A stretch of 64,000 bases of DNA, from the NCBI RefSeq assembly GCF_988243305.1, contig NZ_OZ547136.1. One strand, given 5' to 3'. The position numbers were made by a program, and so were the translations under genes. The notes under the pieces are model-generated. The model was not told the origin of the DNA and made no database searches. It worked only from the letters and a program-made list of their open reading frames with translations. This document shows, one piece after another, positions 3,492-51,213 of this stretch (its first letter is position 1; every line of letters starts with the position of its first letter).

Positions 3492-3547
3492 CTTGCCAGA
3501 GCAGCTTCCGGGCGAGTAACGTGCTGTTAACAAATAAAGGAGACGTT

Positions 3548-3937
3548 ATGCTGGGTTTAAAACAGGTTCACCATATTGCGATTATTGCGACGGATTATGC
3601 GGTGAGCAAAGCGTTTTACTGCGATATTCTTGGTTTCACGCTGCAAAGCGAAGTCTATCGCGAAGCGCGCGATTCGTGGAAAGGGGATTTGGCGCTTAAT
3701 GGGCAATATGTGATTGAGCTTTTCTCATTTCCGTTCCCGCCGGAGCGCCCCAGCCGACCGGAAGCTTGCGGCCTGCGTCATCTGGCTTTTAGCGTTGATG
3801 ATATCGATGCGGCAGTGGCGCACCTTGAAAGCCATAACGTGAAGTGTGAAGCCATCCGTGTCGATCCATACACGCAAAAACGCTTCACGTTCTTTAACGA
3901 TCCGGACGGGCTGCCGCTGGAACTGTATGAGCAGTAA
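3548..3937 (+). CDS. yaeR: Glyoxalase/VOC family protein
   Basis: ORF 3521..3937; the internal ATG at 3548 gives about 129 aa (MLGLKQVHHIAIIATDYAVSKAFY), matching the remembered YaeR length. Confidence 0.8.
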   Translation: MLGLKQVHHIAIIATDYAVSKAFYCDILGFTLQSEVYREARDSWKGDLALNGQYVIELFSFPFPPERPSRPEACGLRHLAFSVDDIDAAVAHLESHNVKCEAIRVDPYTQKRFTFFNDPDGLPLELYEQ

Positions 3938-4001
3938 GGCTTGTCATCGCCACATTTGCCCGGTAACGTGCCGGGCATTGCTACTGTAAAATCGCATCAT
4001 C

Positions 4002-5300
4002 ATGACACTCACGCTCAATAGACAACTTCTCACCTCACGCCAGATTCTGGTGGCCTTTAGCGGCGGGCTTGACTCTACCGTACTGCTGCATCAGTTGGTG
4101 CAGTGGCGGGCGGAAAATCCGGGCGTCACTCTGCGCGCTATCCATGTGCATCACGGTTTAAGTGCCAATGCCGATGCCTGGGTTAGGCATTGCGAGAACA
4201 TCTGCCAACAGTGGCAGGTGCCGCTGGTGGTCGAGCGCGTGCAACTTGCGCAAGAAGGACTGGGTATTGAGGCCCAGGCGCGGCAGGCGCGTTATCAGGC
4301 ATTTGCCCGCACCTTGTTGCCCGGTGAAGTGCTGGTCACCGCGCAACATCTCGACGATCAATGCGAAACCTTTCTGCTGGCGCTAAAACGCGGTAGCGGC
4401 CCTGCCGGGCTTTCGGCTATGGGGGAAGTTTCGGAGTTTGCCGGAACACGGCTTATCCGCCCGTTGCTCGCCCGCACGCGGGGAGAACTGGTGCAGTGGG
4501 CGCGTCAGTATGATTTACGCTGGATTGAAGACGAAAGTAATCAGGATGATAGCTACGATCGTAACTTCCTGCGCCTGCGCGTGGTGCCGTTATTGCAGCA
4601 GCGTTGGCCGCATTTTGCCGAAGCAACGGCCCGCAGCGCTGCGCTTTGCGCTGAACAAGAGAGCCTGTTAGATGAACTGCTGGCGGATGATATAGCGCAC
4701 TGTCAAAAGCCGCAGGGGACGCTGCAGATTGCGCCAATGCTGGCGATGAGTGATGCCCGCCGCGCGGCGATTATCCGCCGCTGGCTGGCAGGGAAGAATG
4801 CACCGATGCCTTCCCGCGACGCGTTGGTGAGGATCTGGCAGGAAGTGGCGCTGGCGCGGGAAGATGCTTCCCCCTGTTTACGTCTGGGCGCGTTTGAAAT
4901 CCGCCGCTATCAGTCGCAACTGTGGTGGATTAAATCCGTTGCCGGGCAAAGCGAAACCATTGTGCCGTGGCAGACGTGGCTACAACCGCTGGAATTACCG
5001 GCGGGACTGGGAAGTGTACAGCTTACAGCGGGAGGCGATATTCGCCCTCCGCGTGCAGACGAAGCGGTCAGCGTGCGTTTCAAAGCGCCAGGATTGCTGC
5101 ATATTATCGGGCGCAACGGCGGACGTAAGCTGAAGAAAATCTGGCAAGAGCTGGGTGTGCCGCCGTGGCTACGTGACACCACGCCACTGCTGTTTTATGG
5201 CGAAACGTTGATTGCGGCGGCAGGGGTATTTGTGACGCAAGAAGGTGTGGCTGAAGGTGAGAAAGGCGTCAGTTTTGTCTGGCAGAAAACGCTTAGTTAA
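4002..5300 (+). CDS. tilS: tRNA(Ile)-lysidine synthetase
   Basis: 432 aa ORF with N-terminal PP-loop motif SGGLDS (ATP pyrophosphatase family); expected position. Confidence 0.9.
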
Positions 5301-27789: not shown

Positions 27790-28521
27790 ATGAGCACTGC
27801 AATTACACGCCAGATCGTTCTCGATACCGAAACTACCGGTATGAACCAGATTGGTGCGCACTATGAAGGCCACAAGATCATTGAGATTGGTGCCGTTGAA
27901 GTGGTGAACCGTCGCCTGACGGGCAATAACTTCCATGTTTATCTCAAACCCGATCGGCTGGTGGATCCGGAAGCCTTTGGCGTACATGGTATTGCCGATG
28001 AGTTTTTGCTCGATAAGCCCTCGTTTGCCGAGGTTGCCGATGAGTTCATGGACTATATCCGCGGCGCGGAGCTGGTGATCCATAACGCAGCGTTCGATAT
28101 CGGCTTTATGGACTACGAGTTTTCGTTGCTTAAGCGCGATATTCCGAAGACCAATACCTTCTGTAAGGTCACCGATAGCCTTGCGGTGGCGAGGAAAATG
28201 TTTCCCGGTAAGCGCAACAGCCTCGATGCGTTATGTGCCCGCTACGAAATAGATAACAGTAAACGAACGCTGCACGGGGCATTACTCGATGCCCAGATCC
28301 TTGCGGAAGTTTATCTGGCGATGACTGGTGGGCAAACGTCGATGGCTTTTGCGATGGAAGGAGAGACACAACAGCAACAAGATGAAACAACAATTCAGCG
28401 CATTGTGCGTCAGGCAAGTAAGTTACGCGTTGTTTTTGCGACAGATGAAGAGCTTGCAGCACATGAAGCCCGTCTCGATCTGGTGCAGAAGAAGGGGGGA
28501 AGCTGCCTCTGGCGGGCATAA
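27790..28521 (+). CDS. dnaQ: DNA polymerase III epsilon subunit (3'-5' proofreading exonuclease)
   Basis: 243 aa from [17 protein letters not shown] (Exo I motif); divergent from rnhA as in E. coli. Confidence 0.93.
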
Positions 28522-28653
28522 ATACCTGTAAAAGGCGCTAAAAATAGCGACTTGGGCGATTTTTGCAGCAAACGATTCAAAAGATGAGAAAAACCGTTGA
28601 CGAAGGGTGAGGCAATCCGTAATATTCGCCTCGTTCCCAACGGAACACAACGC

Positions 28654-28730
28654 GGAGCGGTAGTTCAGTCGGTTAGAATACCTGCCTGTCACGCAGGGGG
28701 TCGCGGGTTCGAGTCCCGTCCGTTCCGCCA
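28654..28730 (+). tRNA. aspV: tRNA-Asp (GTC), the island-associated copy
   Basis: Sequence identical to the tRNA-Asp at 20432..20508; followed by a hairpin and T-run at about 28758..28790. Confidence 0.95.
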
Positions 28731-28757
28731 AATTCACTCATGAAAATGAGTTCAGAG

Positions 28758-28790
28758 AACCGCAAGATTTTTAATTTTGCGGTTTTTTTT
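28758..28790 (+). terminator. Rho-independent terminator after the tRNA-Asp
   Basis: agaaccgcaagatttttaattttgcggttttttttgc: stem ccgcaa/ttgcgg followed by T8. Confidence 0.7.
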
Positions 28791-29060
28791 GCATTTAAAT
28801 CCCGCTATTTCTTCGGTCTATGATTTTGTTATGCTGTAAATGTGTTAATCACATATGGTAGACCATATCATTAATATTTAATCATACTATCGAATCATTC
28901 AATTTAAATATATTTGCATGTTATGATTTTCATTTTTCTATTGATTTAATGAATTTATATTTGCTGTTATTTTTGTTTGTTCTGATTCAAGTGGAGTATA
29001 TAATTAAAAATCGTTAGCTAAACATTACCATGATTATGACAGGCGAGGGAGTGTCCGATT

Positions 29061-29846
29061 ATGAATTTAAGAAGGGTTTGTTGTATATGTGTATTATTCT
29101 CGCTGCTTGCAGGATGTGCCTCTGAATCTCCTATTGATGAAAAAAAGAAAAAAACTCAAACCGCACAAAGTTCTATTAATAAAAACGTTCCCCAGCAACT
29201 AACAGACAAAGATTTATATGGTAATGAAACCACACTGGCTGTATCCGAGGAGGATATTCAAGCTGCGCTTGAAGGAGATGAGTTTCGTGTGCCTCTTAAT
29301 TCTCCCGTTATACTTGTTCAGTCTGGCAGTCGCGCACCGGAAACCATTATGCAGGAGGAGATGAGAAAATATTATACAGTTGCCACATTTTCTGGCATTC
29401 CTGACAGGCAAAAACCTGTAACTTGTAATAAAGACAAAAACAAAGATGAAAGTCTGGATGTTGTAGATGCCGAAAATATGAACTGGATGCAGGCATTACG
29501 TTTTGTTGCGGCAAAAGGCCATCAGAAAGCGATTATTGTTTTCCAGGATACGTTGCAGACAGGAAAATATGACTCTGGATTGAAATCAATAGTTTGGTCA
29601 GATTATAAAAATCAAAAATTGACTGACACGATGTCACTGCGTTATTTGGTTCGATTCACGCTGGTGGATGTGGCTACAGGTGAGTGGGCTACCTGGTCGC
29701 CTGTGAATTATGAATCGAAAGTGATTTTTCCGCAGATAGGGAATAAAAATTCTGACAGCCTTGATGTGGCAGAACAGCAGATTTCACAACTTAAGCAGAA
29801 AACGTACGCAGCAGTGGTTAAAGATCTGGTGAATCGCTATCAGTAG
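29061..29846 (+). CDS. yafT: Lipoprotein YafT
   Basis: 261 aa ORF with lipoprotein signal peptide ([12 protein letters not shown]); AT-rich gene immediately after the tRNA-Asp. Confidence 0.75.
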
Positions 29847-30070
29847 TAAGGTTTTATACCAGACGTTTTAATGGTACTTAGCAAGAAAGAGCATTTTCTT
29901 TTCTATTTATACTCTGGTTCAAGTCTGCTAATTAATTCTACATATATATTTTTTTAGGAGTAGTAAAAAACTTTACTAAAGTTATTTATTGTTCTCTCAA
30001 CATATAAGCTGTAGTTCGAGTTTTCGGTTGAACTGTCAAAAATACATCATACACATCTATAAAACAGCAG

Positions 30071-30110
30071 GTACGGTTAATTAAGAATTTTTATTCGTGA
30101 TTAACCGTAC
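30071..30110. terminator. Hairpin terminator at the distal end of the minus-strand T6SS operon
   Basis: gtacggttaat...attaaccgtac: 11 bp perfect inverted repeat, with a U-run on the minus strand (ctgctgtttt) about 70 nt downstream of the hcp stop. Confidence 0.55.
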
Positions 30111-30182
30111 TTTATCATTTTATAATGTTAAATTGCCTTTTTAAAATATAACAATAATGCAGATGAAAAACGCCCAGGTAAC

Positions 30183-30662
30183 TTAGAAAATCCGTTCACT
30201 CCAAAGGCTGTACGCACTGGTTCCGGCGACGCTGTGCTCCCAGTTGATACTCTCATAGGTAAATGACACAGACTCTTCCGGCTGTCCTGGGCTGTCGTTA
30301 ATGGTATGGGGAACGGTAAGGCCGATGTTTGAGATCCGGGCGTTAGTCAGTTTCACCTTGTAGTACGGTTCATTAACACCAAAGCGGTTGGTGCGATAGA
30401 ATACAAAATCACAGGTCAGACATTCATTCTCCGAAATTGCCTTGCCCAGCAGGGGGGAAGATTTGTCCACCGGTTTCGTGATGGTCAGCTCCTGGTGGTT
30501 GACATTCTGCGCCCGGCTCAGACCATGGGACAGTGACGTCACCATGATCTGATCCTGATGTGCAATCTGGGCTTTGTTACCGATGGACGGCATTGACGAG
30601 CATCCGGATGAAATCAGCCCCTGAAGTTCTCCGTTCAGTGTCAGATAGACGGGATTTGCCAT
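30183..30662 (-). CDS. hcp: T6SS tube protein Hcp (TssD), distal divergent copy
   Basis: 159 aa from MANPVYLTLNGELQG with RBS AAGGAGAATAACA upstream; Hcp-like sequence. The upstream 129 codons of tracked ORF 30183..31049 overlap vasL out of frame and are not part of the gene. Confidence 0.8.
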   Translation of the reverse strand: MANPVYLTLNGELQGLISSGCSSMPSIGNKAQIAHQDQIMVTSLSHGLSRAQNVNHQELTITKPVDKSSPLLGKAISENECLTCDFVFYRTNRFGVNEPYYKVKLTNARISNIGLTVPHTINDSPGQPEESVSFTYESINWEHSVAGTSAYSLWSERIF

Positions 30663-30679
30663 TGTTATTCTCCTTAAAC

Positions 30680-32041
30680 TCAATGGGTCGGAGGGACTGG
30701 CACGGTGCTGTTGTCCGTTGCCATATCCTGTCCGGTATTTTTCAGCAACAGCCAGCGGCTTAACAGCCCATCCAGCCGTTGGTTGATCTCTTTTGCTAGC
30801 GCTTGTGTGTCCTGATTCTGCGTGCGGGTCTCCTGGTACTGCGTCAGCATGTACTCCAGTGGAGTTTCCTGATTCAGTAACCGTTCGGCCTGCCAGGTCA
30901 CCGTTTTGATATACGAGAGGGTGAAACCCTGTTTCTCCGTCTCCTTTTTCATCATCAGATCCGCAAAATCCCGCAAATTCTGCCGCGCCTGTTGCCAGCC
31001 CTTCATCTGCGGACTGGCTTGCGCCCGGTTTCTCAGCGTGGTGCTCCACATCCGGCTGGCTTCCTGCTGTTGCAGGCTTTCCGGCCAGAGGGTGTCTGCG
31101 GTGCGCATCATCTGCATTCCGGTTTCCAGCGGCTGTAGCGGTGGGGTATTCAGAAGCTGTTGCAGGTTCTGTTCATATTCTTTCAGTACCGGTGATGCCA
31201 GCCAGACGGTGGCTGCTCCCTGTGTGGTATCCCTGACCTTTGTAAGCTGCCGCTGCATCGGGTACGTCTGCCACCACCAGAGTGCAGCAGCGATAACGGC
31301 AGTACAGGCGGCACCGGCAACAAAACCTTTTACCGTGTCGCCCTGTTTTGCTTTGTCGGCGTTATCTGCCACTCCGCGCACCTCCACCCGCATTTCCGGC
31401 AGGTCGGGTAGGGGGGGCATGGTTTCCGCTGTGGCGGAAGCCGTGCCTTTAGGCGCATAGACCAGCGTTCTGACCATGGTCTGTACCGCCGTAGCAGTAC
31501 GGTTTCTGGGCTGCGGCTCAAACCGCTTGCGTGTGTTCTGCACAAAATAAAGCAGATTTTCCACGCGCGGTTGGCGCTTCAGTTCCACCTGCTGGAGTTT
31601 GTCGCAGATAAGCTGCAAAGCCCGTTCCGTGCGGTAGAGCAACGAAAGATCATTTTCGGAAAAGGAAACCTGCTGGCGCAGGATATTCCCGGTGCGGGTG
31701 TTGAACCAGTCCAGCATCTCAGTCCTCGCCGGGCCACTTTGCGGCCAGAATTTATCCCATTCGTGGGTGATCATCGCAGCTAGCAGTTCCGCGCCTTCAC
31801 AGAACCCTGCCAGTCCCTGATTACGTGTACGTGCCAGCGTATAGTAGGTGGCGGTATGCAAATCCACCCCGTTGGCCTTAAAAATTGACAGCGCCAGCGA
31901 TTCCACTAGTTTCCAGTTCAGCTCCGGCTGTGACGGGTGGTTAGCTTTGTTAATTTCTTCGCGGATGGCGCTGAACTCCGGCAGGGTACGCGGATCGCTG
32001 CCGGTAACGATAGTTTGTGTCAGTACATTGTTGCTCATCAC
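30680..32041 (-). CDS. vasL: T6SS accessory membrane protein with ImpA-N-like domain (VasL/TagA-like)
   Basis: 453 aa; N-terminal region resembles the ImpA_N domain; single predicted TM helix (GFVAGAACTAVIAAALWWW); sits directly after tssM as vasL does in the V. cholerae cluster. Confidence 0.6.
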   Translation of the reverse strand: MMSNNVLTQTIVTGSDPRTLPEFSAIREEINKANHPSQPELNWKLVESLALSIFKANGVDLHTATYYTLARTRNQGLAGFCEGAELLAAMITHEWDKFWPQSGPARTEMLDWFNTRTGNILRQQVSFSENDLSLLYRTERALQLICDKLQQVELKRQPRVENLLYFVQNTRKRFEPQPRNRTATAVQTMVRTLVYAPKGTASATAETMPPLPDLPEMRVEVRGVADNADKAKQGDTVKGFVAGAACTAVIAAALWWWQTYPMQRQLTKVRDTTQGAATVWLASPVLKEYEQNLQQLLNTPPLQPLETGMQMMRTADTLWPESLQQQEASRMWSTTLRNRAQASPQMKGWQQARQNLRDFADLMMKKETEKQGFTLSYIKTVTWQAERLLNQETPLEYMLTQYQETRTQNQDTQALAKEINQRLDGLLSRWLLLKNTGQDMATDNSTVPVPPTH

Positions 32042-32049
32042 TAACCCCC

Positions 32050-35000
32050 TTAATACAACGTATCCGGTAAACGGAATTGGCTGAACAGACCACCGGTGAA
32101 CGGGTTATCTTCGGTATCCACATGCACCCGATAAACCATCGCGCCGCCGTCCACGTTAAAGCGCACGTTAAAGGTGTCACTGGTCACGTTGGTCAACTGG
32201 CCCGCGCCGAACAGGCGGAACTGCGCCCACGGTCCACTGAAAGCGATACTGCGCGGTGCTCCACCGCTGGTGCCAACCAGCGTCAGCTTGCTTTCATTGC
32301 CTTCACGCATGTTGTTTGGCCAGACCAGATGGGCGGTATAGTTGCGTCCCTGGCTGTAGTCCACTAACTGGCCGTCCAGGTTAAGTACGCTGCGCCGTTT
32401 ATTGCCGGAAAGCGACACCGTTTCCACGGCAAATTGTGTGCCCAGCCCGTTCTGCTGGCTGAAGAAGATGTCGCGGATTTTTTGCGCGGTATCCAGTTGT
32501 TGTCGGATATCTTCACGGATCAGCACTCTGCCGTCGTCGCCAAAGGTCAGATCGTTTTCAAGGAACAGTCGCAGGTTGTCCTTATAGAAATTGTCCAGAA
32601 TGCCATCCGGTTTAAAGAAACGTTCAAACGCATCCAGTGAGGCATCCTGTGAGGCGCGTGGATTAAACGGATAGTTACCGGCAAGCTGTTCGTTGAAGGG
32701 TTTCACTACATTGTCGCGCCAGTCCACTTCCATGTAATGAACAGCTTCCACCATCACCACGTGCCAGGCCTGATCCGCCAGCTTGCCCACCCAGCGGTTA
32801 AGCGGTGCAGGCAGGGTTTTTGCCATCTGGCGGGTGGCGAAGATTGGATCGCTGCTGTTTTGATCCAGGCGTAGCTGCACTGCTTTCAGCGCCGATTTTC
32901 CCGGCACTGGCGAGTTCTGGATCGCCAGCAGGTAACGGTGCAGCTCGGTCAGTTGCTGGTACACGGCCTGTAGCGTACTCGCCTTGTCCTTTTGCTCCTC
33001 CAGTGCGCTGTTTTCCGGTGCGAACTCATGCCCCAGCCGGGACAACAGGCGGTAATCCATCTCATTTATCACCGCTTCCCGCGCCTTATCGTCCAGTTTG
33101 CCGGAGAGCGTCAGCGCGTGTGTATTATCGCGCAGCGCCGTCAGCGCACGCTGGAATGGCTGATCGCCGCTGATAATCTGCTCCAGCGCGTCGGTCAGCG
33201 CCGGCATGGCCTCATAGTCACGGACGTTGAGATTATCCATTCCGGCACGCCATGTAGCGGTATAGTCACTGAGGTACTGTTCAGTGATATGGCGCTGGAT
33301 CTCTTCACGGTCGGCCTCGCTGTAGGCGACGCTTTGCGTCAGGTTCAGCACCCACGAATCCAGCGCGGTCAACTCAACGAGACCGTCGTGTTGTTTGATA
33401 AAATAGCTTTGCAGGCCATAGCGGGTGAGAAACTGCGGGATCACCAGTTTTTCATCATTACCGGCGACGAACACGTTGTCGAAGGTGGGACCAACCTGGT
33501 CGCGCAAATTCAAATCGGCGGGCAACACGCTTAATGCTTTGGTGCGTAGGGTCTGGTAGACACGCTGGTATATCGGCAGTTTGCTCAGTTCATGTTGCGC
33601 ATTAATGACCGGTTTATCATAGGGTGTCCAGCGGCTGATGGCGTCGCTGTCGCCGCTCTGGCGCTGCGCGTGCCAGTCGGTGTGTTCCAGCGCATAGTCC
33701 AGATGTGCCATCAGTTGCGCCTGAATATCACGCTGGCCGTGAAATTCATTGCTCCAGCGCCGCGCCATGTACTGTTTTACCGCCTCGTTGTTGCGCCCAC
33801 TTTTGTCTTCCATCATGCGCACTACGCGCAGCACGGCGAGTTTTTCTTCACTCTCAGGCGGGGCATTGTTCAGATCCCGGATCAGGCCGTTCATTAACGA
33901 GGGGAGATAACGCTGCTCAAGAAGCTGAATGTAGGTTTGTTCCACATATGGCCCTACGCGGACGCCCTGGTACAATCCCATATCCGCCAGAAAACCGTGA
34001 TCGCGGTAATCGCCGTAGGCGAGGGTGGCATCGCGTACCGGGTTGAGTAACGGCAGTTGCAGATTGCCGAATTCATCCTTTCCCTGCGGTGGTGGTACGT
34101 CCATAAAGGCTTTAGCCTGTGCCAGTACGTTAACGCCGGACTGCCAGTTCTGGTTGTAATAATGGTGCCAGCTTCCGACCAGCAATGCCGCCAGTGCCGC
34201 GCCACAGGCGGAAAAGGCGGTCAGCCTGCGCCGGGAGCTGTTCAGCCAGACGCTGTTTTCACCTGCAAGGTTTGGCTCGGCTAGCAGGACTTCCGGGAAG
34301 AGGCGGCGGGTGAAATACGGCGTTGTTTCCACCAGGGGCCAGGTCGCCAGCGAGCTGTTGCCCAGCCCGTACTGGCGGGCGGCGGACTGCGTGAAAATAT
34401 CATCCACCTGGCCGCGCTGTAGCGAGGATGTGAGCCAGACGCCGCGCAGCATCACATCCATATTCTCGCCGTCCAGCAATGCGGCGAGCAGTGAAGTGAC
34501 GATTTCTCCCGTTCCCTGCATCTGACGGGAGAAGCTGAACACGGCGCTGCGTAGCGCAGCACCGGTCTGCACGAGCATCAGGTCTGACAGGGCCAGGTTC
34601 ATCTGTTGTCCCCAGGTCTGCCAGAAGGTGCTCAGCTCGCTGCGCCAGTCATCGTTTTCATGAGCGCGGCGGGTAAACGTGACGCCGAGGATCGCGTCGC
34701 GGTCTTTTTTATCCAGTGAATGGAACAGCGCGGCAAAGCCGGTCAGTAGATCCAGCCGGGTCAGCACCACATAAACGGGCAACCGGCAGTGCAGGCACTG
34801 GCGAATTTCCTGAAGTTGCTGACGCAGATTTTGTACCAGTGCTTCGCGACGGAGTTTATCCGCCGTCAGCAGTTCGGGAAGATCGAGCGTCAGGATCAGA
34901 CCATTGAGCGGCTGGCGTGCGCGCGTTTCCATCAGCCAGCCCAGCCAGTGTTCGCGCAGGCGGCGGTGGAGCAGATCATCCCCGCCGGGGGAGGTCAGTA

Positions 35001-35577
35001 CGCCGTCAACATCGAAAATTACTGCCTGGTTGCCCACTCGCGGTGTGATCAGCGGATGATATTCCACACCCCGGATGCTTTCCGGCATGTAAATAATGTC
35101 AGACGGAAAGCCCTCGCGCAGCAGCGTGCTTTTGCCGCTACCCGCAGGACCAATGACCATATACCACGGCAACTGCCACAGATAACTGCGGTTATCCAGA
35201 TGGCGGCGCAGGCGCAGCAGCCAGTGATCCAAATATTGCTGCTGGTGGTGGAGTTCCACGGTCAACGGATCTTTTTCTTCCTCCCGCTGCTGTTTCTGCT
35301 GTTTTTCCAGCTTTTGCAGACGCTTCATTACCCGCCAGGTGAGCCAGACCAGAGCGATAAGCCCCCAGACGGCGGTCGCCAGCCAGCGGTTTGCCAGCGG
35401 AGCCAGCCAGTGCTGCTCATAGAGCGTCCATTTTGGACCCTGCCACCAGATCCACACCAGCAGAAAAATCCATGCCAGCGCCAGCAGCCAGGCGGCGGAT
35501 ACCTTGAATCGCGGCATCGCTGGCCTGAGCGCAGATCTCAACGAGCTGAACAGTCGGGATGTGGGAAATTTGAACAC
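32050..35577 (-). CDS. tssM: T6SS membrane-complex protein TssM (IcmF/VasK)
   Basis: 1175 aa; N-terminal TM helices and Walker A motif GPAGSGKST; size and position match TssM. Exact start uncertain. Confidence 0.9.
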   Translation of the reverse strand: MFKFPTSRLFSSLRSALRPAMPRFKVSAAWLLALAWIFLLVWIWWQGPKWTLYEQHWLAPLANRWLATAVWGLIALVWLTWRVMKRLQKLEKQQKQQREEEKDPLTVELHHQQQYLDHWLLRLRRHLDNRSYLWQLPWYMVIGPAGSGKSTLLREGFPSDIIYMPESIRGVEYHPLITPRVGNQAVIFDVDGVLTSPGGDDLLHRRLREHWLGWLMETRARQPLNGLILTLDLPELLTADKLRREALVQNLRQQLQEIRQCLHCRLPVYVVLTRLDLLTGFAALFHSLDKKDRDAILGVTFTRRAHENDDWRSELSTFWQTWGQQMNLALSDLMLVQTGAALRSAVFSFSRQMQGTGEIVTSLLAALLDGENMDVMLRGVWLTSSLQRGQVDDIFTQSAARQYGLGNSSLATWPLVETTPYFTRRLFPEVLLAEPNLAGENSVWLNSSRRRLTAFSACGAALAALLVGSWHHYYNQNWQSGVNVLAQAKAFMDVPPPQGKDEFGNLQLPLLNPVRDATLAYGDYRDHGFLADMGLYQGVRVGPYVEQTYIQLLEQRYLPSLMNGLIRDLNNAPPESEEKLAVLRVVRMMEDKSGRNNEAVKQYMARRWSNEFHGQRDIQAQLMAHLDYALEHTDWHAQRQSGDSDAISRWTPYDKPVINAQHELSKLPIYQRVYQTLRTKALSVLPADLNLRDQVGPTFDNVFVAGNDEKLVIPQFLTRYGLQSYFIKQHDGLVELTALDSWVLNLTQSVAYSEADREEIQRHITEQYLSDYTATWRAGMDNLNVRDYEAMPALTDALEQIISGDQPFQRALTALRDNTHALTLSGKLDDKAREAVINEMDYRLLSRLGHEFAPENSALEEQKDKASTLQAVYQQLTELHRYLLAIQNSPVPGKSALKAVQLRLDQNSSDPIFATRQMAKTLPAPLNRWVGKLADQAWHVVMVEAVHYMEVDWRDNVVKPFNEQLAGNYPFNPRASQDASLDAFERFFKPDGILDNFYKDNLRLFLENDLTFGDDGRVLIREDIRQQLDTAQKIRDIFFSQQNGLGTQFAVETVSLSGNKRRSVLNLDGQLVDYSQGRNYTAHLVWPNNMREGNESKLTLVGTSGGAPRSIAFSGPWAQFRLFGAGQLTNVTSDTFNVRFNVDGGAMVYRVHVDTEDNPFTGGLFSQFRLPDTLY

Positions 35578-35596
35578 AGTAACTCCTTGTTATCTT

Positions 35597-37039
35597 TTAC
35601 TGTTCTGCCGTGAATTTTTGTTCCAGTGCTTTCAGCAGGGAAGGCTCCCATTCGGGTAGCATCATGTGTAAGCCTGTTTTGAAGAGCATCCGGTACTGCT
35701 GTTGTGCAAGCTGAACCATACCGGCTTCTTCCAGTAACTGCGCGCCGAAAAATTGGCGATGAAACTGGTTACGGGGATCACCTTCGGGCAGGTTTTCCAG
35801 ATACCGCAGCGCGGTTTCCAGCCCGTTCTCATCGAAGCACGCCCTGGCCGCCTGTAATTCTTCATCGGTCTGTACAGCTGCTGCGGTTTGGTTGCCTGAG
35901 CCCGATGGTGCCAGCCACTGTTTCGTCTGTTCGGACACAAACGGAGTGCGGTCGTTAAACAACAGGTTGATCAGTGCGGGCAGGCGAGCAAGAAAACTGG
36001 TAACTTCATCACGGATAGCATCCGCCACCTGTATATAACCAAGGCGCAACGCGGTCTGTGCTGAGAGGTAATGGCCGTCCAGCCAGTACGGGGCCAGCAG
36101 CAGGCTTTTTTCCACCTGCTGCCAAAGCGCCATGTCGGCATTGTTCAGTCGCGCCAGATAGTCATCCATCATATCTACAGGGAAAGCAGCCAGAGGGGTC
36201 CGGCCATCGCTTTCTGCCTGCGGGGTACTGGTGATGGTCTGCCACAGCGCATGGCGGCGCAGGCGGTAACCCAGCGGTGACTCCGGCTGACGTTCACAGA
36301 GAATGGCGGCTACCTTCAACAGGGTGTCGCGCCATGCTTTATCATCGTGGCTGTCCACGGTGACCTGCGGGATTGGAGTGGCTGCAACAGGAGGCTGAGC
36401 GGAAACTGTGTGCGGTAACATATCCGGTGCAGATCCGGTCGTGGCCTGCGGCGCAATGGCGGCGGTTCGTGCAGATGATGGCATTTCAGGCGCTACATCA
36501 CGAAACGCGCGCTGAAACAGAGTAAATAAATCGTCTGTCGCCTTAGCCAGCTCAGGCGCGTTGTGCGCCTGCCAGCACAGTGCCAGTTTTGCCAGCTCTC
36601 CCAGCAAAGCATCGCGCTGTGTTGTCACAGCATTCCCGGCAAAGTCATGAATGGCCGACTCAAAGCGTTTTATCACTTGGGTGGCGAAGCGTTTTTTGTG
36701 GGCCATGTTCTGCGGCGCGGCGCATGTCCAGTAGTGCTCTGTATATTGTGTCAGTATCCTGGAGGCCAGCAGAATATCACCGGCATGTTGCAGGGTACGC
36801 AGCAGGTGGGCCAGCAGGCGAAAATCTTTGGTTTCTGAGGCCAGAAGCATCAGGCCCCGGCGCTGAAGTTCGGGGATATCAAGCTGGCTGTGCGCCAGTG
36901 AACCGAGCTTGACGATTTCGCTGTCGATAAACTCCCAGTCTGCATTGCCATCATCAAGCGCGGCGGACAGCTTATCTTCCGGCAGGTTTTCCAGCAGGTG
37001 TGCAAGCCATATATCAGGATTACGTAAGTCCATTGCCAT
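35597..37039 (-). CDS. tssA: T6SS protein TssA (VasJ; ImpA N-terminal domain)
   Basis: About 480 aa from MAMDLRNPDIWL with RBS AGGAGA; start lies 5 nt from the vasI stop. Confidence 0.8.
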   Translation of the reverse strand: MAMDLRNPDIWLAHLLENLPEDKLSAALDDGNADWEFIDSEIVKLGSLAHSQLDIPELQRRGLMLLASETKDFRLLAHLLRTLQHAGDILLASRILTQYTEHYWTCAAPQNMAHKKRFATQVIKRFESAIHDFAGNAVTTQRDALLGELAKLALCWQAHNAPELAKATDDLFTLFQRAFRDVAPEMPSSARTAAIAPQATTGSAPDMLPHTVSAQPPVAATPIPQVTVDSHDDKAWRDTLLKVAAILCERQPESPLGYRLRRHALWQTITSTPQAESDGRTPLAAFPVDMMDDYLARLNNADMALWQQVEKSLLLAPYWLDGHYLSAQTALRLGYIQVADAIRDEVTSFLARLPALINLLFNDRTPFVSEQTKQWLAPSGSGNQTAAAVQTDEELQAARACFDENGLETALRYLENLPEGDPRNQFHRQFFGAQLLEEAGMVQLAQQQYRMLFKTGLHMMLPEWEPSLLKALEQKFTAEQ

Positions 37040-37043
37040 ATTT

Positions 37044-37787
37044 TTATTCTCCTGCCCAGTGGCAGGCGTCGCGTAGCGGCGCAATAACCCGCGCCAGCCC
37101 GTCAATGTTAAAGGTCAGCTTTCCGGCAGCATTGTCTGTGCCGGTATCAACCGTCAGTGTTTTAGCAGCGAATAGTTGCTTAATTTCATCAATACCGGAT
37201 AACCCCCGGCTGGACTCCAGCAGGGTGCCGTTCTCGCGCACAAACCAGTGGCTGCGCAATGCCCGGCTGTCGGCATTCAGGGTGACGGCGATATCATGGA
37301 CATCCAGAGGATGCATCAGCGCCACCTGCATCCGGGTGATATTGTCCACGCAACTGAACATCAGCACCGGGCGCGGCGGAACATGACCGATAGCCGGGGT
37401 GGTTATCACTACCGTCGGGCGTTCACCCGGCACCTGCGTCACCAGCAGCTCTGTGGTGCTGCCCTGGCGGCGTTTTTCCTGCTCTGTGGCGCGGGTCCAG
37501 GCTTCGCCCACAAAGCTGGCTTTGACCAGTGCGGCGTTGCCGAAGCCGGGCTGTTCCGGTGCAAGAATGCGGTCATAACAGTCAAGCCGCTCCAGCGCCG
37601 CAGATTCCCGCCGACAGGACTGCATGGCCTGTAACGTGGCTGTCGCATCCGGCGGGGGCGTGGTGGCGACGGCGACCGCCGCACCGGCCATTGACGATGT
37701 TTCTGCGGGCGCGGCACTGGCGGGTAAGCCCGCCATCAGGCCCGCGATAAACCATCCTGCCTGCCGGAAAACGCGCAACCTGCTCAT
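37044..37787 (-). CDS. vasI: T6SS-associated protein VasI family (signal-peptide protein)
   Basis: 247 aa; N-terminal signal-like segment (AGLMAGLPASAAPA); lies between clpV and tssA, the position of vasI in V. cholerae. Confidence 0.6.
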   Translation of the reverse strand: MSRLRVFRQAGWFIAGLMAGLPASAAPAETSSMAGAAVAVATTPPPDATATLQAMQSCRRESAALERLDCYDRILAPEQPGFGNAALVKASFVGEAWTRATEQEKRRQGSTTELLVTQVPGERPTVVITTPAIGHVPPRPVLMFSCVDNITRMQVALMHPLDVHDIAVTLNADSRALRSHWFVRENGTLLESSRGLSGIDEIKQLFAAKTLTVDTGTDNAAGKLTFNIDGLARVIAPLRDACHWAGE

Positions 37788-47760: not shown

Positions 47761-49245
47761 TTATTCCTTATCCAGTCGTCCGACCAGGCTCAGGTCGAAA
47801 CTGGCACCCATGTATTTAAAATGCGGTCTGACAGAAATCGCGACCTGGTACCAGCCCGGCTCACCATCCACATCCAGTACCTCGATCTTAGCCTGACGCA
47901 AAGGCCGGTGGCTGCGGACTTCGGCAGGCGGATTTTCCTGGTCAGCAACATACTGGCGAATCCAGGTGTTCAGCTCACGCTCCAGGTCACTACGTTCTTT
48001 CCATGAGCCAAGCTGTTCGCGCTGAATTACCTTGATGTAATGCGCTAACCTGCTGATAACAAACAAGTATGGCAGCTGGGTGCCGAGTTTATAGTTGGTC
48101 TCCGCAGCCTTGCCTTCGGGGGTTTTGGGGAATGTTTTGGGTTTCTGCACCGAGTTGGCCGAGAAAAAGCACGCATTATCAGACCCTTTACGCATGGTCA
48201 GTGTGATAAAGCCCTCTTCCGCCAGCTCATACTCTCTCCGGTCAGTGATCAACACTTCAGTCGGAATTTTTGCCTGCATTTGCCCCATGGATTCATACAG
48301 ATGCACCGGGAGGTCTTTGACTGCGCCGCCGCTGGAAGGGCCAATAATATTTGGGCACCAGCGATACTTAGCAAAACTTTCCGCCAGGTTGGCGGCCAGT
48401 AAAAACGAGGTATTCCCCCACAGATAAGACTCATGACTCTGGCTGACATCTTCATGGTAACGGAAGGTTTTGACAGGGTTTTCATCCGGTGAGTAAGGGT
48501 GGCGCAGCAGGAACCGGGGGGCGGTCAGGCCCAGGTAACGGGAATCTTCCGATTCACGCAGGGCGCGCCAGCGGGAGTAGGCCGGGCCTTCAAAGATGGC
48601 ACCCGGTTCTTTGATCCCCGGTAACTCTGTCCATGAATCCAGACCGAAAAATTCGGATGATACTGACGACAGGAACGGGCTGTGCGCCATCGCGCTGACC
48701 TGGCTGATATATTTCAGCAACTTCATATCCGGCGTGGTGTTCTTAAAGGCAAAGTTGCCGATTACCGCCGCCACTGGCTCACCGCCAAATTGTCCGTAAC
48801 CGCTTGAATATACATGCTTGTAATACGCAGACTGCGTGATTTCAGGTGCAAATTCGAAATCATCCAGCAGTTCTTCCTGAGTGACATTCAGGAAATGGAC
48901 TTTGATGTTTTCCCGTGTATCCGCGCGTTCAACCAGCAGCTTCAGCGAGCGCAGCAGGGATTCCAGTTCCTGAAACTCCGGGGCATGAATAATGGCATCC
49001 ATCTGCCTGCTGGTTCGGGCATCAATATCAGCAATCATGGCGTCAACGGCCAGGATATTGATAGGTTCAGCGCTACTGTCGCCCTGTAACATGGCGGCAA
49101 TAAAGGCGCTCACGCCCTGGCGGGTGATATCGTAGCTTTCTGATTTAGGCTGGACGCGGGTTTGCGCCATGATTTCATCAAGCAGAGATGGGGGCGCGGC
49201 GGTTTGAGACGCGCTGACGGGAGCAATTTCTTCCTTTACTGACAT
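47761..49245 (-). CDS. tssC: T6SS contractile sheath large subunit TssC (VipB)
   Basis: 494 aa; highly conserved sheath protein length and position. Confidence 0.93.
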   Translation of the reverse strand: MSVKEEIAPVSASQTAAPPSLLDEIMAQTRVQPKSESYDITRQGVSAFIAAMLQGDSSAEPINILAVDAMIADIDARTSRQMDAIIHAPEFQELESLLRSLKLLVERADTRENIKVHFLNVTQEELLDDFEFAPEITQSAYYKHVYSSGYGQFGGEPVAAVIGNFAFKNTTPDMKLLKYISQVSAMAHSPFLSSVSSEFFGLDSWTELPGIKEPGAIFEGPAYSRWRALRESEDSRYLGLTAPRFLLRHPYSPDENPVKTFRYHEDVSQSHESYLWGNTSFLLAANLAESFAKYRWCPNIIGPSSGGAVKDLPVHLYESMGQMQAKIPTEVLITDRREYELAEEGFITLTMRKGSDNACFFSANSVQKPKTFPKTPEGKAAETNYKLGTQLPYLFVISRLAHYIKVIQREQLGSWKERSDLERELNTWIRQYVADQENPPAEVRSHRPLRQAKIEVLDVDGEPGWYQVAISVRPHFKYMGASFDLSLVGRLDKE

Positions 49246-49267
49246 ACTGAAAATCCTTCTGTGAAAA

Positions 49268-49771
49268 TTATTTCTGAACGGCGATACCCAGTTCCTGGAT
49301 CAGCTGCTCGCGGCTGTCTTCGTTTTCCAGTAGCGCCTGAAGTTGTGCGCGGAAGGCCGGAATATTGCCTAGTGGAGACTTAAGTGCGACCAGTGCCTCA
49401 CGCAGCTCCAGCAGGCGCTTTATTTCCGGCACCTGACTGGCAATATGGTCAGGAGAAAGGTCATCCATAGATTTGACTTTCAGGTTGACGTACATTTGCT
49501 CATTGGGAGCGTCACTGAGTTCAGCCGGAACAACAAACTCCCGTTCAATGTCAGCTTCTGAAATGACTGCGTTGAGGTTATAGCGGTTGATAGCAATGGC
49601 AGTTCGCTCATCCAACGGCGTGTTATCTGGTTTCCCTTTCAGATTGCCGGTGATCAATAAATTCAGCGGCAATTCGATATCAGCAGCCACCCCATCAACT
49701 TTTGGTGTATACCGAACGCTGATTCTTTCTTTCGGCGCGACACTGCCGCCATTGTTGTTCATTTTGCTCAT
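49268..49771 (-). CDS. tssB: T6SS contractile sheath small subunit TssB (VipA)
   Basis: About 167 aa from MSKMNNNGGSVAPKERISVRYTPK; first gene of the minus-strand operon. Confidence 0.9.
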   Translation of the reverse strand: MSKMNNNGGSVAPKERISVRYTPKVDGVAADIELPLNLLITGNLKGKPDNTPLDERTAIAINRYNLNAVISEADIEREFVVPAELSDAPNEQMYVNLKVKSMDDLSPDHIASQVPEIKRLLELREALVALKSPLGNIPAFRAQLQALLENEDSREQLIQELGIAVQK

Positions 49772-49822
49772 AAAAATGTTCCCGTTCAGGCCATGAGCAC
49801 AGCATTTTCGTACTGCATACAA

Positions 49823-50474
49823 ATACCGACAATACCGTTTCAGTGGCAGTTAGATAATGTAACCTTCTTTCTGTTGTGATCGGTATTCTACTCATGAAAT
49901 AAAATATTAAAAGAACTATTTATATTTTTGAAAGAGATGTATCCTTCATTATTAATACATGATAGTGAAATCAATTTTGGTATTTATAGACTTGGTGAAT
50001 ATAATTTTACGGCCAATAAAGTGCAATAACACATTGATTTATATGTGTTTATTAAATTGATTAATAAGTTTTGTGTATGGTTTTATAAATTAGTTAATTG
50101 CTAGCAATACATCATAAGAAATTCCTTTAAGGAATATCTTAATTGCGTGCAGGAACGATGGTGAAGTAAGTGTTGTAATAATTTATTTTTGACGAAACTG
50201 TAGGTTTTTATGGGGATAAGGATACGTTATGGATAATTCTACTGTTGATGTTGATATATTTTTAGCTTATGTGACCGTGTTCTGAAATTGACTAAAAATA
50301 TATTTAAACACCATAAAAGAGTTTTTCGGTAGGTGCTAATTACGTGTGCCTGTAACTCGAATAAAGAAAAGGGTGTGGTTCCTGATGTGAGCCGCATCAC
50401 ACTCTAACCTGTCGGGGATTAACGACGGGTTGTTCGTAAAAACAGCAGTTGATAATTTCACAAGGAGTTCACAA
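49823..50474. promoter_or_regulatory. AT-rich divergent control region between tssB (minus) and hcp-vgrG (plus)
   Basis: About 650-700 bp strongly AT-rich non-coding spacer between the two divergently transcribed T6SS units; contains a GATC at 49878..49881 and AT-rich tracts; no individual promoter elements confidently assigned. Confidence 0.6.
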
Positions 50475-50993
50475 ATGCCAACCCCATGTTACATTTCTAT
50501 TACGGGCCAGACCCAGGGGAACATCACTGCCGGTGCTTTCACCGCGGATTCTGTCGGCAATATCTACGTGCAGGGGCACGAAGATGAAATGCTGGTGCAG
50601 GAGTTTTTGCACAACGTTACTGTTCCAACCGATCCGCAGTCTGGCCAGCCTTCCGGCCAGCGCGCGCACAAACCGTTCATTTTCACCGTGGCGCTGAACA
50701 AAGCCGTTCCGCTGCTGTACAACGCGCTGGCCTCCGGTGAAATGCTGCCGAAAGTGGAGCTGCACTGGTGGCGTACTTCAGTTGAAGGCAAGCAGGAGCA
50801 CTACTTCACCACACGTCTTACTGACGCGACGATTGTGGACATGAACCTGCACATGCCGCACTGCCAGGACCCTGCACAGCGTGAGTTTACGCAATTGCTC
50901 GCAGTATCACTGGCATACCGTAAGGTTGAGTGGGAGCACATCAAATCCGGTACTTCTGGTGCCGATGACTGGCGTGCACCGCTGGAAGCATAA
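50475..50993 (+). CDS. hcp: T6SS tube protein Hcp (TssD), canonical copy
   Basis: 172 aa from MPTPCYISITGQTQGNITAGAF with RBS AAGGAG; strong resemblance to the canonical Hcp as remembered from V. cholerae. Confidence 0.92.
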   Translation: MPTPCYISITGQTQGNITAGAFTADSVGNIYVQGHEDEMLVQEFLHNVTVPTDPQSGQPSGQRAHKPFIFTVALNKAVPLLYNALASGEMLPKVELHWWRTSVEGKQEHYFTTRLTDATIVDMNLHMPHCQDPAQREFTQLLAVSLAYRKVEWEHIKSGTSGADDWRAPLEA

Positions 50994-51213
50994 ATCTGAG
51001 TCAACAACATCCTGCCTTCGTGCAGGATGTTGTTTTTGTACGTGTAAAAAATGAGTGTCAGTAAGGAGTTACGCTTTCATGAGGGAGATGGCGGATGCCG
51101 GAAACCCGGGCGGTAGCGTACCTGAAAATGTAAAGATGAGTGTAACGCTGCACTGGCACCCTTTGCTGCATGGTGAGAATCATTTGGTCCGTGAATAAAT
51201 CAGGGGGGTCATT

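What the first reader, a model, noticed from the sequence alone, without database searches (positions are those of the whole stretch)
30071..30110. Perfect 11 bp inverted repeat likely terminating the 19.6 kb T6SS operon
gtacggttaat(N18)attaaccgtac lies about 70 nt past the distal hcp stop and is followed on the minus strand by a U-run, consistent with an intrinsic terminator closing the tssB-to-hcp transcript. On the plus strand it is also followed by T-rich sequence, so it may insulate the convergent yafT as well.
Basis: seen in the sequence. Interest (0 to 1): 0.3.

Follow-up and report, generated by a model that had tools for sequence, protein, structure and literature searches.

The report
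Hairpin between T6SS operon and yafT
A real, strongly conserved DNA/RNA hairpin sits between the last gene of an E. coli type VI secretion operon and a gene facing it, and it looks like an ordinary transcription stop signal that fits the facing gene's strand better than the secretion operon's strand.

Summary
The inverted repeat is real: GTACGGTTAAT (30071-30081) and ATTAACCGTAC (30100-30110), 72 nt past the stop of the distal hcp. It is not an 11-bp stem with an 18-nt loop. It is a 40-44-nt hairpin with an inner 4-bp stem and a UUUU tetraloop.

It is the only strong hairpin in the 336-nt, 28% GC spacer between a yafT-like gene (+) and the 19.6-kb tssB-to-hcp operon (-). It occurs once per genome in 579 of 5426 complete E. 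coli genomes. It is invariant across haplotypes whose spacers otherwise vary at about 30% of alignment columns.

Terminator features are asymmetric:
- **Plus strand:** -18.6 to -21.4 kcal/mol, two extra G·U pairs, and an immediate U-rich tail (UUUAUCAUUUUAU).
- **Minus strand (T6SS operon):** -14.4 kcal/mol, followed by CUGCUG before only four U's, which is marginal by TransTermHP criteria and common as background in this window.

My reading: a shared 3'-end hairpin. It is a canonical terminator for plus-strand transcription, shielding hcp from antisense read-through, and a weak terminator or 3' stabiliser for the operon.

No 3'-end data exist and there is no covariation. This is an ordinary element of low interest.

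The parts
30071..30081 (.). Left arm of the perfect inverted repeat, GTACGGTTAAT
   Evidence: Read directly from the sequence. Exact match confirmed by pattern search and the repeat finder.
30100..30110 (.). Right arm of the perfect inverted repeat, ATTAACCGTAC
30069..30112 (+). Full plus-strand RNA hairpin of 19 pairs. It comprises A-U and G·U at the base, the 11 perfect pairs, U·G, A-U, a 1x1 internal loop (A30084/G30097), and the inner stem GAAU/AUUC (30085-30088 / 30093-30096) closed by a UUUU loop (30089-30092).
   Evidence: Minimum free energy -21.4 kcal/mol, z = -6.3. The consensus fold of 4 haplotypes is -21.7 kcal/mol.
30111..30123 (+). Plus-strand U-rich tail TTTATCATTTTAT, starting directly after the stem. 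It is polymorphic between haplotypes, including a 5-nt indel after 30120.
   Evidence: Tail score -4.24. Haplotype variants are shown.
30057..30070 (-). Minus-strand sequence following the stem, CUGCUGUUUUAUAG. The U4 run corresponds to 30061-30064 and starts 6 nt after the stem.
   Evidence: Tail score -2.39.
30016..30051 (.). Invariant block TCGAGTTTTCGGTTGAACTGTCAAAAATACATCATA just left of the hairpin. It is conserved between E. coli haplotypes and E. whittamii, and its function is unknown.
   Evidence: Alignment A2 and the column-variability count.
30183..30662 (-). Distal hcp (tssD), the last gene of the T6SS operon
   Evidence: NCBIfam TIGR03344, E = 9e-61. RefSeq annotation of identical loci agrees.
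30183..49822 (-). The 19.6-kb T6SS gene block: tssB, tssC, tssE, tssF, tssG, tagH, tssJ, tssK, tssL, tssH, vasI, tssA, tssM, vasL-like, hcp.
   Evidence: ORF packing and NCBIfam hits. tssG, tssJ and tssL are assigned by position and size only and were not scanned.
29061..29846 (+). Convergent yafT-like lipoprotein gene. Its stop codon is 224 nt upstream of the hairpin.
   Evidence: 82% amino-acid identity to K-12 YafT. Annotated as a hypothetical protein in RefSeq.

Best explanation
The inverted repeat encodes one shared RNA hairpin at the junction of two convergent transcription units, and it works asymmetrically.

**Plus strand.** Here it has the anatomy of a canonical Rho-independent terminator: a 17-19-bp stem, a UUUU tetraloop, and UUUAUCAUUUUAU directly after the stem. 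It most likely stops transcription coming from the yafT-like gene, or from anywhere in the AT-rich spacer, before that transcription runs antisense into hcp and the T6SS operon.

**Minus strand.** The same sequence folds into a weaker hairpin at the 3' end of the tssB-to-hcp transcript. Its U-run is short and displaced by 6 nt, so I expect it to terminate only weakly. It would act mainly as a 3' stem-loop that stops 3'-to-5' exonucleases and so defines and stabilises the hcp 3' end. Any residual read-through would be ended further on, for example by Rho in the AT-rich spacer.

**Shown versus inferred.** The sequence, the fold energies, the tails, the gene context and the conservation are shown. 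Termination, insulation and stabilisation are inferred.
For: **Sole candidate.** It is the only hairpin of -10 kcal/mol or better in the 336-nt spacer on either strand.

**Fold energies.** The plus-strand fold is -18.6 kcal/mol (40 nt) to -21.4 kcal/mol, z = -6.3. The minus-strand fold is -14.4 to -15.4 kcal/mol, z = -4.5.

**Terminator scores, TransTermHP parameters.**
- Plus strand: hairpin -14.6, tail -4.24.
- Minus strand: hairpin -12.4, tail -2.39 (cut-off -2.5), or hairpin -8.9 and tail about -2.9 with a mismatched closing pair.

**Background rate in this window.** Across both strands, 9 hairpin clusters match the plus-strand version and 434 match the minus-strand version.

**Strand-specific pairing.** Both non-Watson-Crick positions that abut the perfect stem (G30070/T30111 and T30082/G30099) are G·U pairs in plus-strand RNA and A·C mismatches in minus-strand RNA.

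**The only substitution seen.** T30082 to C in E. whittamii turns U·G into C-G, so the pair is kept.

**Conservation.**
- The hairpin is invariant in all E. coli haplotypes: 579 genomes at 92-100% identity, plus 23 metagenome contigs.
- It has 1 variable column in 40, against 75 in 250 for the rest of the spacer, p = 6e-5.

**Internal comparison.** The island's other hcp (50430-50993, +) and tRNA-Asp both carry canonical terminators with immediate T-runs and tail scores of -4.9 and -4.37.

**Relatives.** The same convergent junction in relatives carries strong but non-homologous hairpins: Pseudocitrobacter L005, Citrobacter L008 and K-12.
Against: - There are no transcript 3'-end data for any strain that carries the element.
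- There is no compensatory covariation: the stem is simply invariant, so the structure is supported by conservation and energy, not by covariation.
- The hairpin lies 224 nt from the yafT-like stop but only 72 nt from the hcp stop, so by position it looks more like hcp's element.
- The plus-strand U-tract is interrupted (UUUAUCAUUUU), and the stem is AT-rich: 4 G-C pairs among the 11 perfect pairs.
- Sequence-level invariance of the loop and of the adjacent 36-nt block (30016-30051) goes beyond what a plain terminator needs.
- The G·U strand argument rests on two positions (chance about 0.03).
Confidence: 0.55

Rival explanations
1. The hairpin is primarily an efficient intrinsic terminator that closes the tssB-to-hcp transcript on the minus strand, and any plus-strand effect is incidental.
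For: - It is 72 nt downstream of the last gene of the operon, and it is the only strong minus-strand hairpin in the spacer.
- The minus-strand fold is -14.4 to -15.4 kcal/mol, z = -4.5.
- A UUUU run follows within 6 nt.
- In O145 strains that have lost most of the island, hcp and the hairpin stay together.
- The Pseudocitrobacter homologue (L005) also has a hairpin after hcp followed by a displaced U-run, ACUGUAUUUUU.
Against: - The U-run is short and separated from the stem by CUGCUG. Established knowledge of intrinsic termination requires the U-tract directly after the stem.
- The tail score is -2.39, below the TransTermHP retention threshold of -2.5, and -1.82 in E. whittamii.
- In this window, 434 hairpin clusters score as well or better.
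- The wobble positions favour the plus-strand fold.
Confidence: 0.2
2. The hairpin is the terminator of an unannotated plus-strand small RNA of about 60-110 nt. This RNA would be either processed from a long yafT 3' UTR or transcribed from within the spacer. The invariant block 30016-30051 would be its functional (seed) region.
For: - An invariant 36-nt block lies directly upstream of a plus-strand terminator-like hairpin, while the flanking spacer varies at 24-33% of columns.
- The layout (weak 5' stem, A/C-rich single strand, terminator hairpin) resembles enterobacterial sRNAs. This is a resemblance, not a test.
Against: - The promoter scan found no plus-strand promoter-like site between 29847 and 30070. 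The best -10-like hexamer (30050-30055) is the most variable part of the block.
- There is no Rfam match.
- The U-tail is interrupted.
- Duplex prediction against 53 translation-initiation regions in the window was no better than shuffled controls: 93% of shuffles did as well.
- The only UTI89 Hfq co-IP study found reports two novel sRNAs whose probe sequences are not in this spacer.
Confidence: 0.1
3. The repeat acts at the DNA level as a protein-binding palindrome. One example would be a pair of half-sites for an AtaR/KacA-type ribbon-helix-helix antitoxin, whose operators share the core GTACGG.
For: - The symmetrised KacAT crystallisation duplex contains GTACGGTTA / TAACCGTAC, identical to the outer 9 nt of both arms. 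All base-specific contacts described fall within GTACGG.
- The natural operators are ATGTACGG-N7-CCGTACAT in K. pneumoniae and in E. coli ataRT.
- ataRT is present in 1845 of 5426 E. coli genomes.
- The extra 21 bp between the cores equals two helical turns.
Against: - The cores are 28 bp apart instead of 7, which the compact antitoxin-toxin hexamer described could not span without looping.
- The shared part of the natural sites is only a 6-mer, plus TTA in one half-site. It was found through a literature-wide string search, so there is a large look-elsewhere effect.
- There is no RHH or GNAT gene in the window, and no kacAT-type operator in E. coli by BLAST.
- The region between the arms is itself self-complementary (inner 4-bp stem), which two separated half-sites would not need.
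Confidence: 0.03
4. The hairpin has no function of its own. It is a chance palindrome in AT-rich, horizontally acquired spacer DNA, and it is conserved only because the carrier lineages are closely related.
For: - A perfect 11-bp inverted repeat occurs somewhere in 36% of shuffled 64-kb windows.
- There is no covariation.
- Phylogenetic depth is shallow: E. coli plus E. whittamii only.
Against: - The local chance of such a repeat in the spacer is 0.9%.
- The extended pairing gives z = -6.3.
- The hairpin is significantly less variable than the spacer around it in the same set of genomes, so shared ancestry alone does not explain it (p = 6e-5).
Confidence: 0.07

Closest known systems
Rho-independent (intrinsic) transcription terminators of Enterobacteriaceae, including bidirectional terminators shared by convergent genes
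   Same: - It is a stable stem-loop in a short spacer between convergent genes.
- A U-rich tract follows directly on the plus strand, and an A-containing tract lies on the other side.
- It is conserved relative to its flanks.
- It is positionally equivalent to hairpins at the same junction in K-12, Citrobacter and Pseudocitrobacter.
   Different: - The stem is long and AT-rich, with an internal loop, rather than short and GC-rich.
- The U-tract is interrupted.
- The flanks are asymmetric: the minus-strand U-run is only 4 nt and is displaced by 6 nt. It is therefore not the symmetric A-tract/hairpin/U-tract form described for bidirectional terminators (text).
- It lies 224 nt from the stop of the gene it fits best.
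The canonical terminator after the island's proximal hcp (window 51005-51032, + strand)
   Same: It is a hairpin immediately downstream of an hcp gene in the same T6SS island, with an 11-bp perfect stem.
   Different: - The proximal one is GC-richer (CAACATCCTGC/GCAGGATGTTG) and has a 6-nt loop.
- It is followed at once by TTTTT (tail -4.9), and it starts about 10 nt after the stop codon.
- The distal hairpin, on its own hcp's strand, lacks the adjacent U-run (tail -2.39).
AtaR/KacA (DUF1778 ribbon-helix-helix antitoxin) operators of GNAT-type toxin-antitoxin modules
   Same: Both contain inverted copies of the core GTACGG. One KacA half-site, GTACGGTTA, is identical to 9 nt of each arm.
   Different: - The spacing is 28 bp instead of 7 bp.
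- The flanking T of TGTACGG is G here.
- The site is not at a promoter.
- No toxin-antitoxin genes are nearby.
- The central region is self-complementary, which points to a hairpin.
REP/BIME repetitive extragenic palindromes
   Same: It is an extragenic palindrome between convergent genes that could stabilise an upstream mRNA.
   Different: It is single-copy: 1 place per genome in all 579 carrier genomes, with no other copy in the window. It has no REP sequence and is AT-rich.

Membership tests
Intrinsic terminator acting on the plus strand (yafT-like side) | Stable RNA stem-loop | tested here: met
   -18.6 kcal/mol (40 nt) to -21.4 kcal/mol (44 nt), z = -6.3, 0 of 200 shuffles as good. TransTermHP-style hairpin score -14.6.
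Intrinsic terminator acting on the plus strand (yafT-like side) | U-rich tract immediately 3' of the stem | tested here: met
   UUUAUCAUUUUAU, tail score -4.24 against a cut-off of -2.5. The score is -4.24 in the B2 haplotype and -3.42 in O145. The tract is interrupted and is not a clean U-run.
Intrinsic terminator acting on the plus strand (yafT-like side) | Lies downstream of a same-strand transcription unit | tested here: met
   The yafT-like ORF ends at 29846 and the hairpin starts at 30069-30071, implying a 3' UTR of about 225-275 nt. There is no stronger hairpin in between.
Intrinsic terminator acting on the plus strand (yafT-like side) | RNA 3' ends map to the U-tract; termination in vitro without Rho | not testable with these tools
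   No Term-seq, RNA-seq or biochemical data were available. Published E. coli 3'-end maps that I know of are for K-12, which lacks this spacer.
   -14.4 to -15.4 kcal/mol, z = -4.5. It lies 72 nt after the hcp stop.
   The stem is followed by CUGCUG, then UUUU. The tail is -2.39 (cut-off -2.5), and passes only if a mismatched closing pair is accepted (hairpin -8.9, tail about -2.9). It is -1.82 in E. whittamii. In this window 434 clusters do at least as well.
Bidirectional terminator | Hairpin between convergent genes, flanked directly by an A-tract on one side and a T-tract on the other | tested here: inconclusive
   Convergent position is met. The T-tract side is met. The A-tract (AAAA, 30061-30064) is separated from the stem by 6 nt.
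REP/BIME repeated extragenic palindromes | Many dispersed copies per genome | tested here: not met
   Exactly one place per genome in 579 genomes. The only exact copies of the arm in the window are the two arms themselves.
AtaR/KacA RHH-antitoxin operator | Inverted (T)GTACGG half-sites separated by about 7 bp, overlapping the promoter of a DUF1778-GNAT gene pair | tested here: not met
   The GTACGG core is present twice, but 28 bp apart. tblastn with KacA and KacT finds nothing in the window at E < 0.9.
Any curated RNA family (Rfam 15) | Covariance-model match | tested here: not met
   In 28400-31000, only tRNA-Asp passes. Nothing overlaps the hairpin even at E <= 10.
Hfq-type or 3'-UTR-derived small RNA | Own promoter or processing site, conserved seed, terminator hairpin, detectable transcript | tested here: inconclusive
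   A conserved block upstream of the hairpin is present. No promoter-like site was found, and no target signal. A transcript is not testable here.

The most novel reading that the evidence does not exclude
The hairpin and the invariant 36-nt block beside it (30016-30112) together form an unannotated plus-strand RNA. It would be either a yafT 3'-UTR-derived RNA or an independently transcribed one. It is restricted to Escherichia strains that carry the aspV T6SS island, and it is encoded antisense to the 3' end of the T6SS transcript, so it could couple yafT expression to hcp/T6SS mRNA fate. A still less likely variant is that the GTACGG-bearing arms are secondary binding sites for the AtaR antitoxin.
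Probability: 0.1. Interest if true: 0.4.

Novelty: new member of a known kind. Interest (0 to 1): 0.13.

Why it matters
The practical value is modest.

- **Annotation.** It marks the likely 3' boundary of the aspV-island T6SS operon found in ExPEC, AIEC and APEC strains. It also shows that the element is a better plus-strand terminator than a minus-strand one. That matters for anyone building hcp or T6SS reporter fusions or deletions, or interpreting antisense transcription at this locus.
- **Method.** An inverted repeat downstream of an operon is not automatically that operon's terminator. Tail adjacency and G·U asymmetry can tell the strands apart.
- **If the novel reading were true.** If the adjacent invariant block proved to be part of a small RNA, that RNA would be a lineage-specific regulator linked to a virulence-associated secretion system.

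Tried and rejected
**Searches that found nothing**
- Rfam scan of 28400-31000 at E <= 10: nothing at the hairpin.
- BLAST of 29990-30135 against plasmids and phages: the only full-length hit is an E. coli chromosome held in the plasmid collection, and there was nothing in phages. There is no link to a mobile element.
- Search for an sRNA target: duplex prediction of 30019-30070 against 53 start regions in the window was no better than shuffled controls.
- UTI89 Hfq co-IP paper: its two novel sRNAs (PapR, C271) use probes that do not match this spacer, and its supplements do not mention the locus.

**Searches for covariation**
- An Hcp-based scan of one genome per species gave 15 loci. Only E. 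whittamii and a probable mis-binned E. coli contig share the spacer.
- A metagenome scan with a flanking 23-mer gave 23 contigs, all with the identical hairpin.
- The result is no compensatory changes.

**The KacAT/AtaRT operator lead**
- The 11-mer match was to a symmetrised crystallisation oligo.
- The natural operators share only GTACGG (+TTA) and have 7-bp spacing.
- There are no toxin-antitoxin genes in the window.
- I rejected membership and kept it as a 3% rival.

**Other ideas rejected**
- Small ORFs in the spacer (29871-29957, 29989-30084, 29986-30054): their reading frames are not conserved between haplotypes.
- K-12 as a reference: its yafT is followed by a different hairpin, and by ykfM, which is unrelated to Hcp.
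- The built-in terminator scan misses this hairpin because of its internal loop, so I used my own hairpin and tail scan instead.

Full report
**1. Observation**

The sequence at 30071-30110 reads GTACGGTTAAT TAAGAATTTTTATTCGTG ATTAACCGTAC, a perfect 11-bp inverted repeat with an 18-nt spacer, as reported.

The repeat finder shows that complementarity continues inward. The arms are 30071-30088 and 30093-30110, 89% complementary, with 4 nt between them. The structure is therefore a 40-nt hairpin made of:
- the 11 perfect pairs;
- a small internal loop;
- a 4-bp inner stem (GAAU/AUUC);
- a UUUU tetraloop.

How unlikely is it?
- A perfect 11-bp repeat with a 3-30 nt spacer turns up in 36% of dinucleotide shuffles of the whole 64-kb window, so on that scale it is not remarkable.
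- It turns up in only 0.9% of shuffles of the 336-nt spacer it sits in.
- The extended fold is far outside the shuffle distribution: z = -6.3 on the plus strand and -4.5 on the minus strand.

**2. Context**

The window is the E. coli rnhA-dnaQ-aspV region carrying the aspV T6SS island.
- tRNA-Asp lies at 28654-28727.
- A yafT-like lipoprotein gene lies at 29061-29846 on the plus strand, 82% identical to K-12 YafT.
- A 28% GC spacer occupies 29847-30182.
- On the minus strand follow hcp (30183-30662), a VasL/TssA-like gene, tssM, tssA, vasI, tssH, then tssK, tagH, tssF, tssE, tssC and tssB, ending at 49822. ORFs at 40526-41299, 42653-43177 and 44471-45520 sit where tssL, tssJ and tssG are expected, but they were not scanned.
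- Gaps between these genes are 22 nt or less, or the genes overlap. One 19.6-kb transcription unit is therefore a reasonable reading, although internal promoters were not excluded.
- RefSeq records with the identical or near-identical locus annotate the same genes and annotate nothing in the spacer.
- The island is the one described as PAI I (aspV, T6SS, two hcp genes) in LF82, UTI89, 536, S88 and APEC O1 (PMC2941450).

**3. Distribution and conservation**

The spacer occurs exactly once per genome in 579 of 5426 complete E. coli genomes. Most are B2-type haplotypes at 90-95% identity to the window. K-12 lacks it. There, yafT is followed by a different GC-rich hairpin and by ykfM, which is unrelated to Hcp.

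I looked for more distant homologues in two ways.
- An Hcp-based scan of one genome per species returned 15 loci. Only Escherichia whittamii, and a 'Citrobacter' MAG contig identical to the B2 haplotype (probably mis-binned E. coli), share the spacer.
- A metagenome scan with a flanking 23-mer returned 23 contigs, all carrying the identical hairpin.

Across 10 distinct haplotypes:
- The hairpin has 1 credible variable column in 40. A second comes from a contig at 1.4x coverage.
- The spacer outside 30013-30110 has 75 variable columns in 250 (Fisher p = 6e-5).
- A 36-nt block immediately to the left (30016-30051) is also invariant, including in genomes that were not selected with the 23-mer.

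No pair shows a compensatory double change. The structure is therefore supported by energy and purifying selection, not by covariation.

**4. Which strand?**

I scored both strands with TransTermHP parameters (read).

| Property | Plus strand | Minus strand (T6SS operon) |
|---|---|---|
| Fold energy | -18.6 kcal/mol (40 nt), -21.4 with two extra base pairs | -14.4 to -15.4 kcal/mol, 3x3 internal loop |
| Sequence after the stem | UUUAUCAUUUUAU, directly adjacent | CUGCUG, then only UUUU |
| Hairpin score | -14.6 | -12.4 |
| Tail score (cut-off -2.5) | -4.24 | -2.39 |
| Hairpin clusters in the window at least as good | 9 | 434 |

The minus strand passes the TransTermHP cut-off only if a mismatched closing pair is accepted (hairpin -8.9, tail about -2.9).

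Two further points favour the plus strand.
- The two non-Watson-Crick positions abutting the perfect stem (G30070/T30111 and T30082/G30099) are both G·U wobbles in plus-strand RNA and A·C mismatches in minus-strand RNA. The chance of that is about 0.03.
- The single substitution seen, T30082 to C in E. whittamii, converts U·G to C-G.

For comparison, the island's other hcp (50430-50993, +) is followed about 10 nt later by a textbook terminator: an 11-bp GC-richer stem, a 6-nt loop, TTTTT and a tail score of -4.9. tRNA-Asp also has one (tail -4.37).

One point favours the minus strand: position. The hairpin is 72 nt from the hcp stop but 224 nt from the yafT-like stop. It is also the only strong hairpin in the spacer on either strand.

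**5. Most likely mechanism**

My best reading is a shared but asymmetric 3'-end hairpin (confidence about 0.55).
- **Plus strand.** It works as a canonical Rho-independent terminator. It ends transcripts from the yafT-like gene, or from spurious initiation in the AT-rich spacer, before they run antisense into hcp.
- **Minus strand.** It forms at the end of the T6SS transcript, where the poor U-tract predicts weak termination. It would act mainly as a 3' stem-loop that blocks exonucleases and defines the hcp 3' end. Read-through would be dealt with further on.
- **Analogous junctions.** The same junction in Pseudocitrobacter, Citrobacter and K-12 carries strong but non-homologous hairpins. This fits a generic need for a 3'-end structure at this convergent site.

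All functional statements are inference. Nothing here measures RNA.

**6. Rivals**

This is disfavoured by the displaced, short U-run and by the background rate in the window.
- **Terminator of an unannotated plus-strand small RNA (0.1).**
  - For it: the invariant upstream block.
  - Against it: no promoter-like site, no Rfam hit and no target signal. The -10-like hexamer is the most variable part of the block.
- **DNA-level binding site (0.03).**
  - A literature string search found both 11-mers in the KacAT operator paper.
  - That oligo was symmetrised. The natural KacA and AtaR operators are ATGTACGG-N7-CCGTACAT.
  - Only the GTACGG core is shared, the spacing here is 28 bp, and there is no RHH or GNAT gene in the window.
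- **Chance palindrome (0.07).** This is disfavoured by the local statistics and by the difference in conservation between hairpin and flanks.
- **REP-type element.** This is excluded because the element is single-copy.

**7. Novelty and verdict**

This is an unannotated but ordinary terminator-type hairpin, a new member of a known kind.

Interest is low (about 0.13). The residual interest lies in the sequence-level invariance of the hairpin plus the adjacent 36-nt block. That goes beyond what a plain terminator needs, and a simple strand-specific Northern blot or 3'-end map in UTI89 or LF82 could resolve it.

Noticed in passing
window 51003-51034: A textbook intrinsic terminator sits about 10 nt after the proximal hcp (50430-50993, +) and about 180 nt before vgrG (51214-53196). 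It has the stem CAACATCCTGC/GCAGGATGTTG, a 6-nt loop, then TTTTT. It may act as an attenuator that gives more Hcp than VgrG.
   Followed up: partly
window 50254-50303: A perfect 12-bp AT-rich inverted repeat (ATATATTTTTAG ... CTAAAAATATAT, 26-nt spacer) lies inside the divergent region between tssB (ends at 49822) and the proximal hcp (starts at 50430). It is a possible regulatory site for both T6SS promoters.
   Followed up: no
window 30016-30051: A 36-nt block (TCGAGTTTTCGGTTGAACTGTCAAAAATACATCATA) is invariant between E. coli haplotypes and E. whittamii, while the surrounding spacer varies at 24-33% of columns. No promoter, ORF or RNA family explains it.
   Followed up: partly
window 30071-30110 versus L043 1500-1530 and L044 2440-2470: Each hairpin arm contains GTACGG, the core half-site of the KacA and AtaR antitoxin operators (ATGTACGG-N7-CCGTACAT). 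Here the two cores are 21 bp (two helical turns) further apart. This is probably coincidence.
   Followed up: yes
window 30363-30373 (also 2622, 9222, 12156): One-mismatch copies of the arm GTACGGTTAAT are over-represented: 6 matches including the two arms, against 0.74 expected. One of them (GTACGGTTCAT) lies inside hcp, 250 nt away, where it encodes NEPY on the minus strand.
   Followed up: no
window 29871-29957: A small plus-strand ORF (28 aa, MVLSKKEHF...) starts in a conserved block just after the yafT-like stop. The first six codons are conserved, but indels change the frame and the length (20 aa) in the B2 and E. whittamii haplotypes. It is probably not a gene.
   Followed up: partly
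window 30111-30125: The plus-strand tail is the most polymorphic part near the hairpin. It has a 5-nt indel (the window lacks it; other haplotypes carry TATCC or TATTT) and substitutions at 30113 and 30114. All variants remain T-rich.
   Followed up: partly
L003 (E. coli O145 RM8995-C1) 3342-4796: O145 strains carry a collapsed island. The distal hcp and a 153-nt vasL remnant are joined almost directly to yafV, yet the spacer and hairpin are intact.
   Followed up: no
L006 (DXKH01000042.1, labelled Citrobacter sp. MAG): The hcp-spacer-yafT segment of this contig is identical to the E. coli B2 haplotype. The contig is probably E. coli DNA mis-binned into a Citrobacter MAG.
   Followed up: no
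window 57865-58377: An ORF near the yafV end of the island matches the PFL_4695 family of integrating-conjugative-element proteins (E = 2e-35). This hints at the island's mobile ancestry.
   Followed up: no
L004 (K-12) 2122-2160: In K-12 the yafT stop is followed within 10 nt by a GC-rich hairpin (CTGCCGCCAG-GAATTT-CTGGCGGCA) that lacks a good U-tail on either strand. ykfM, in the position of hcp and of the same length (159 aa), shows no similarity to Hcp.
   Followed up: partly
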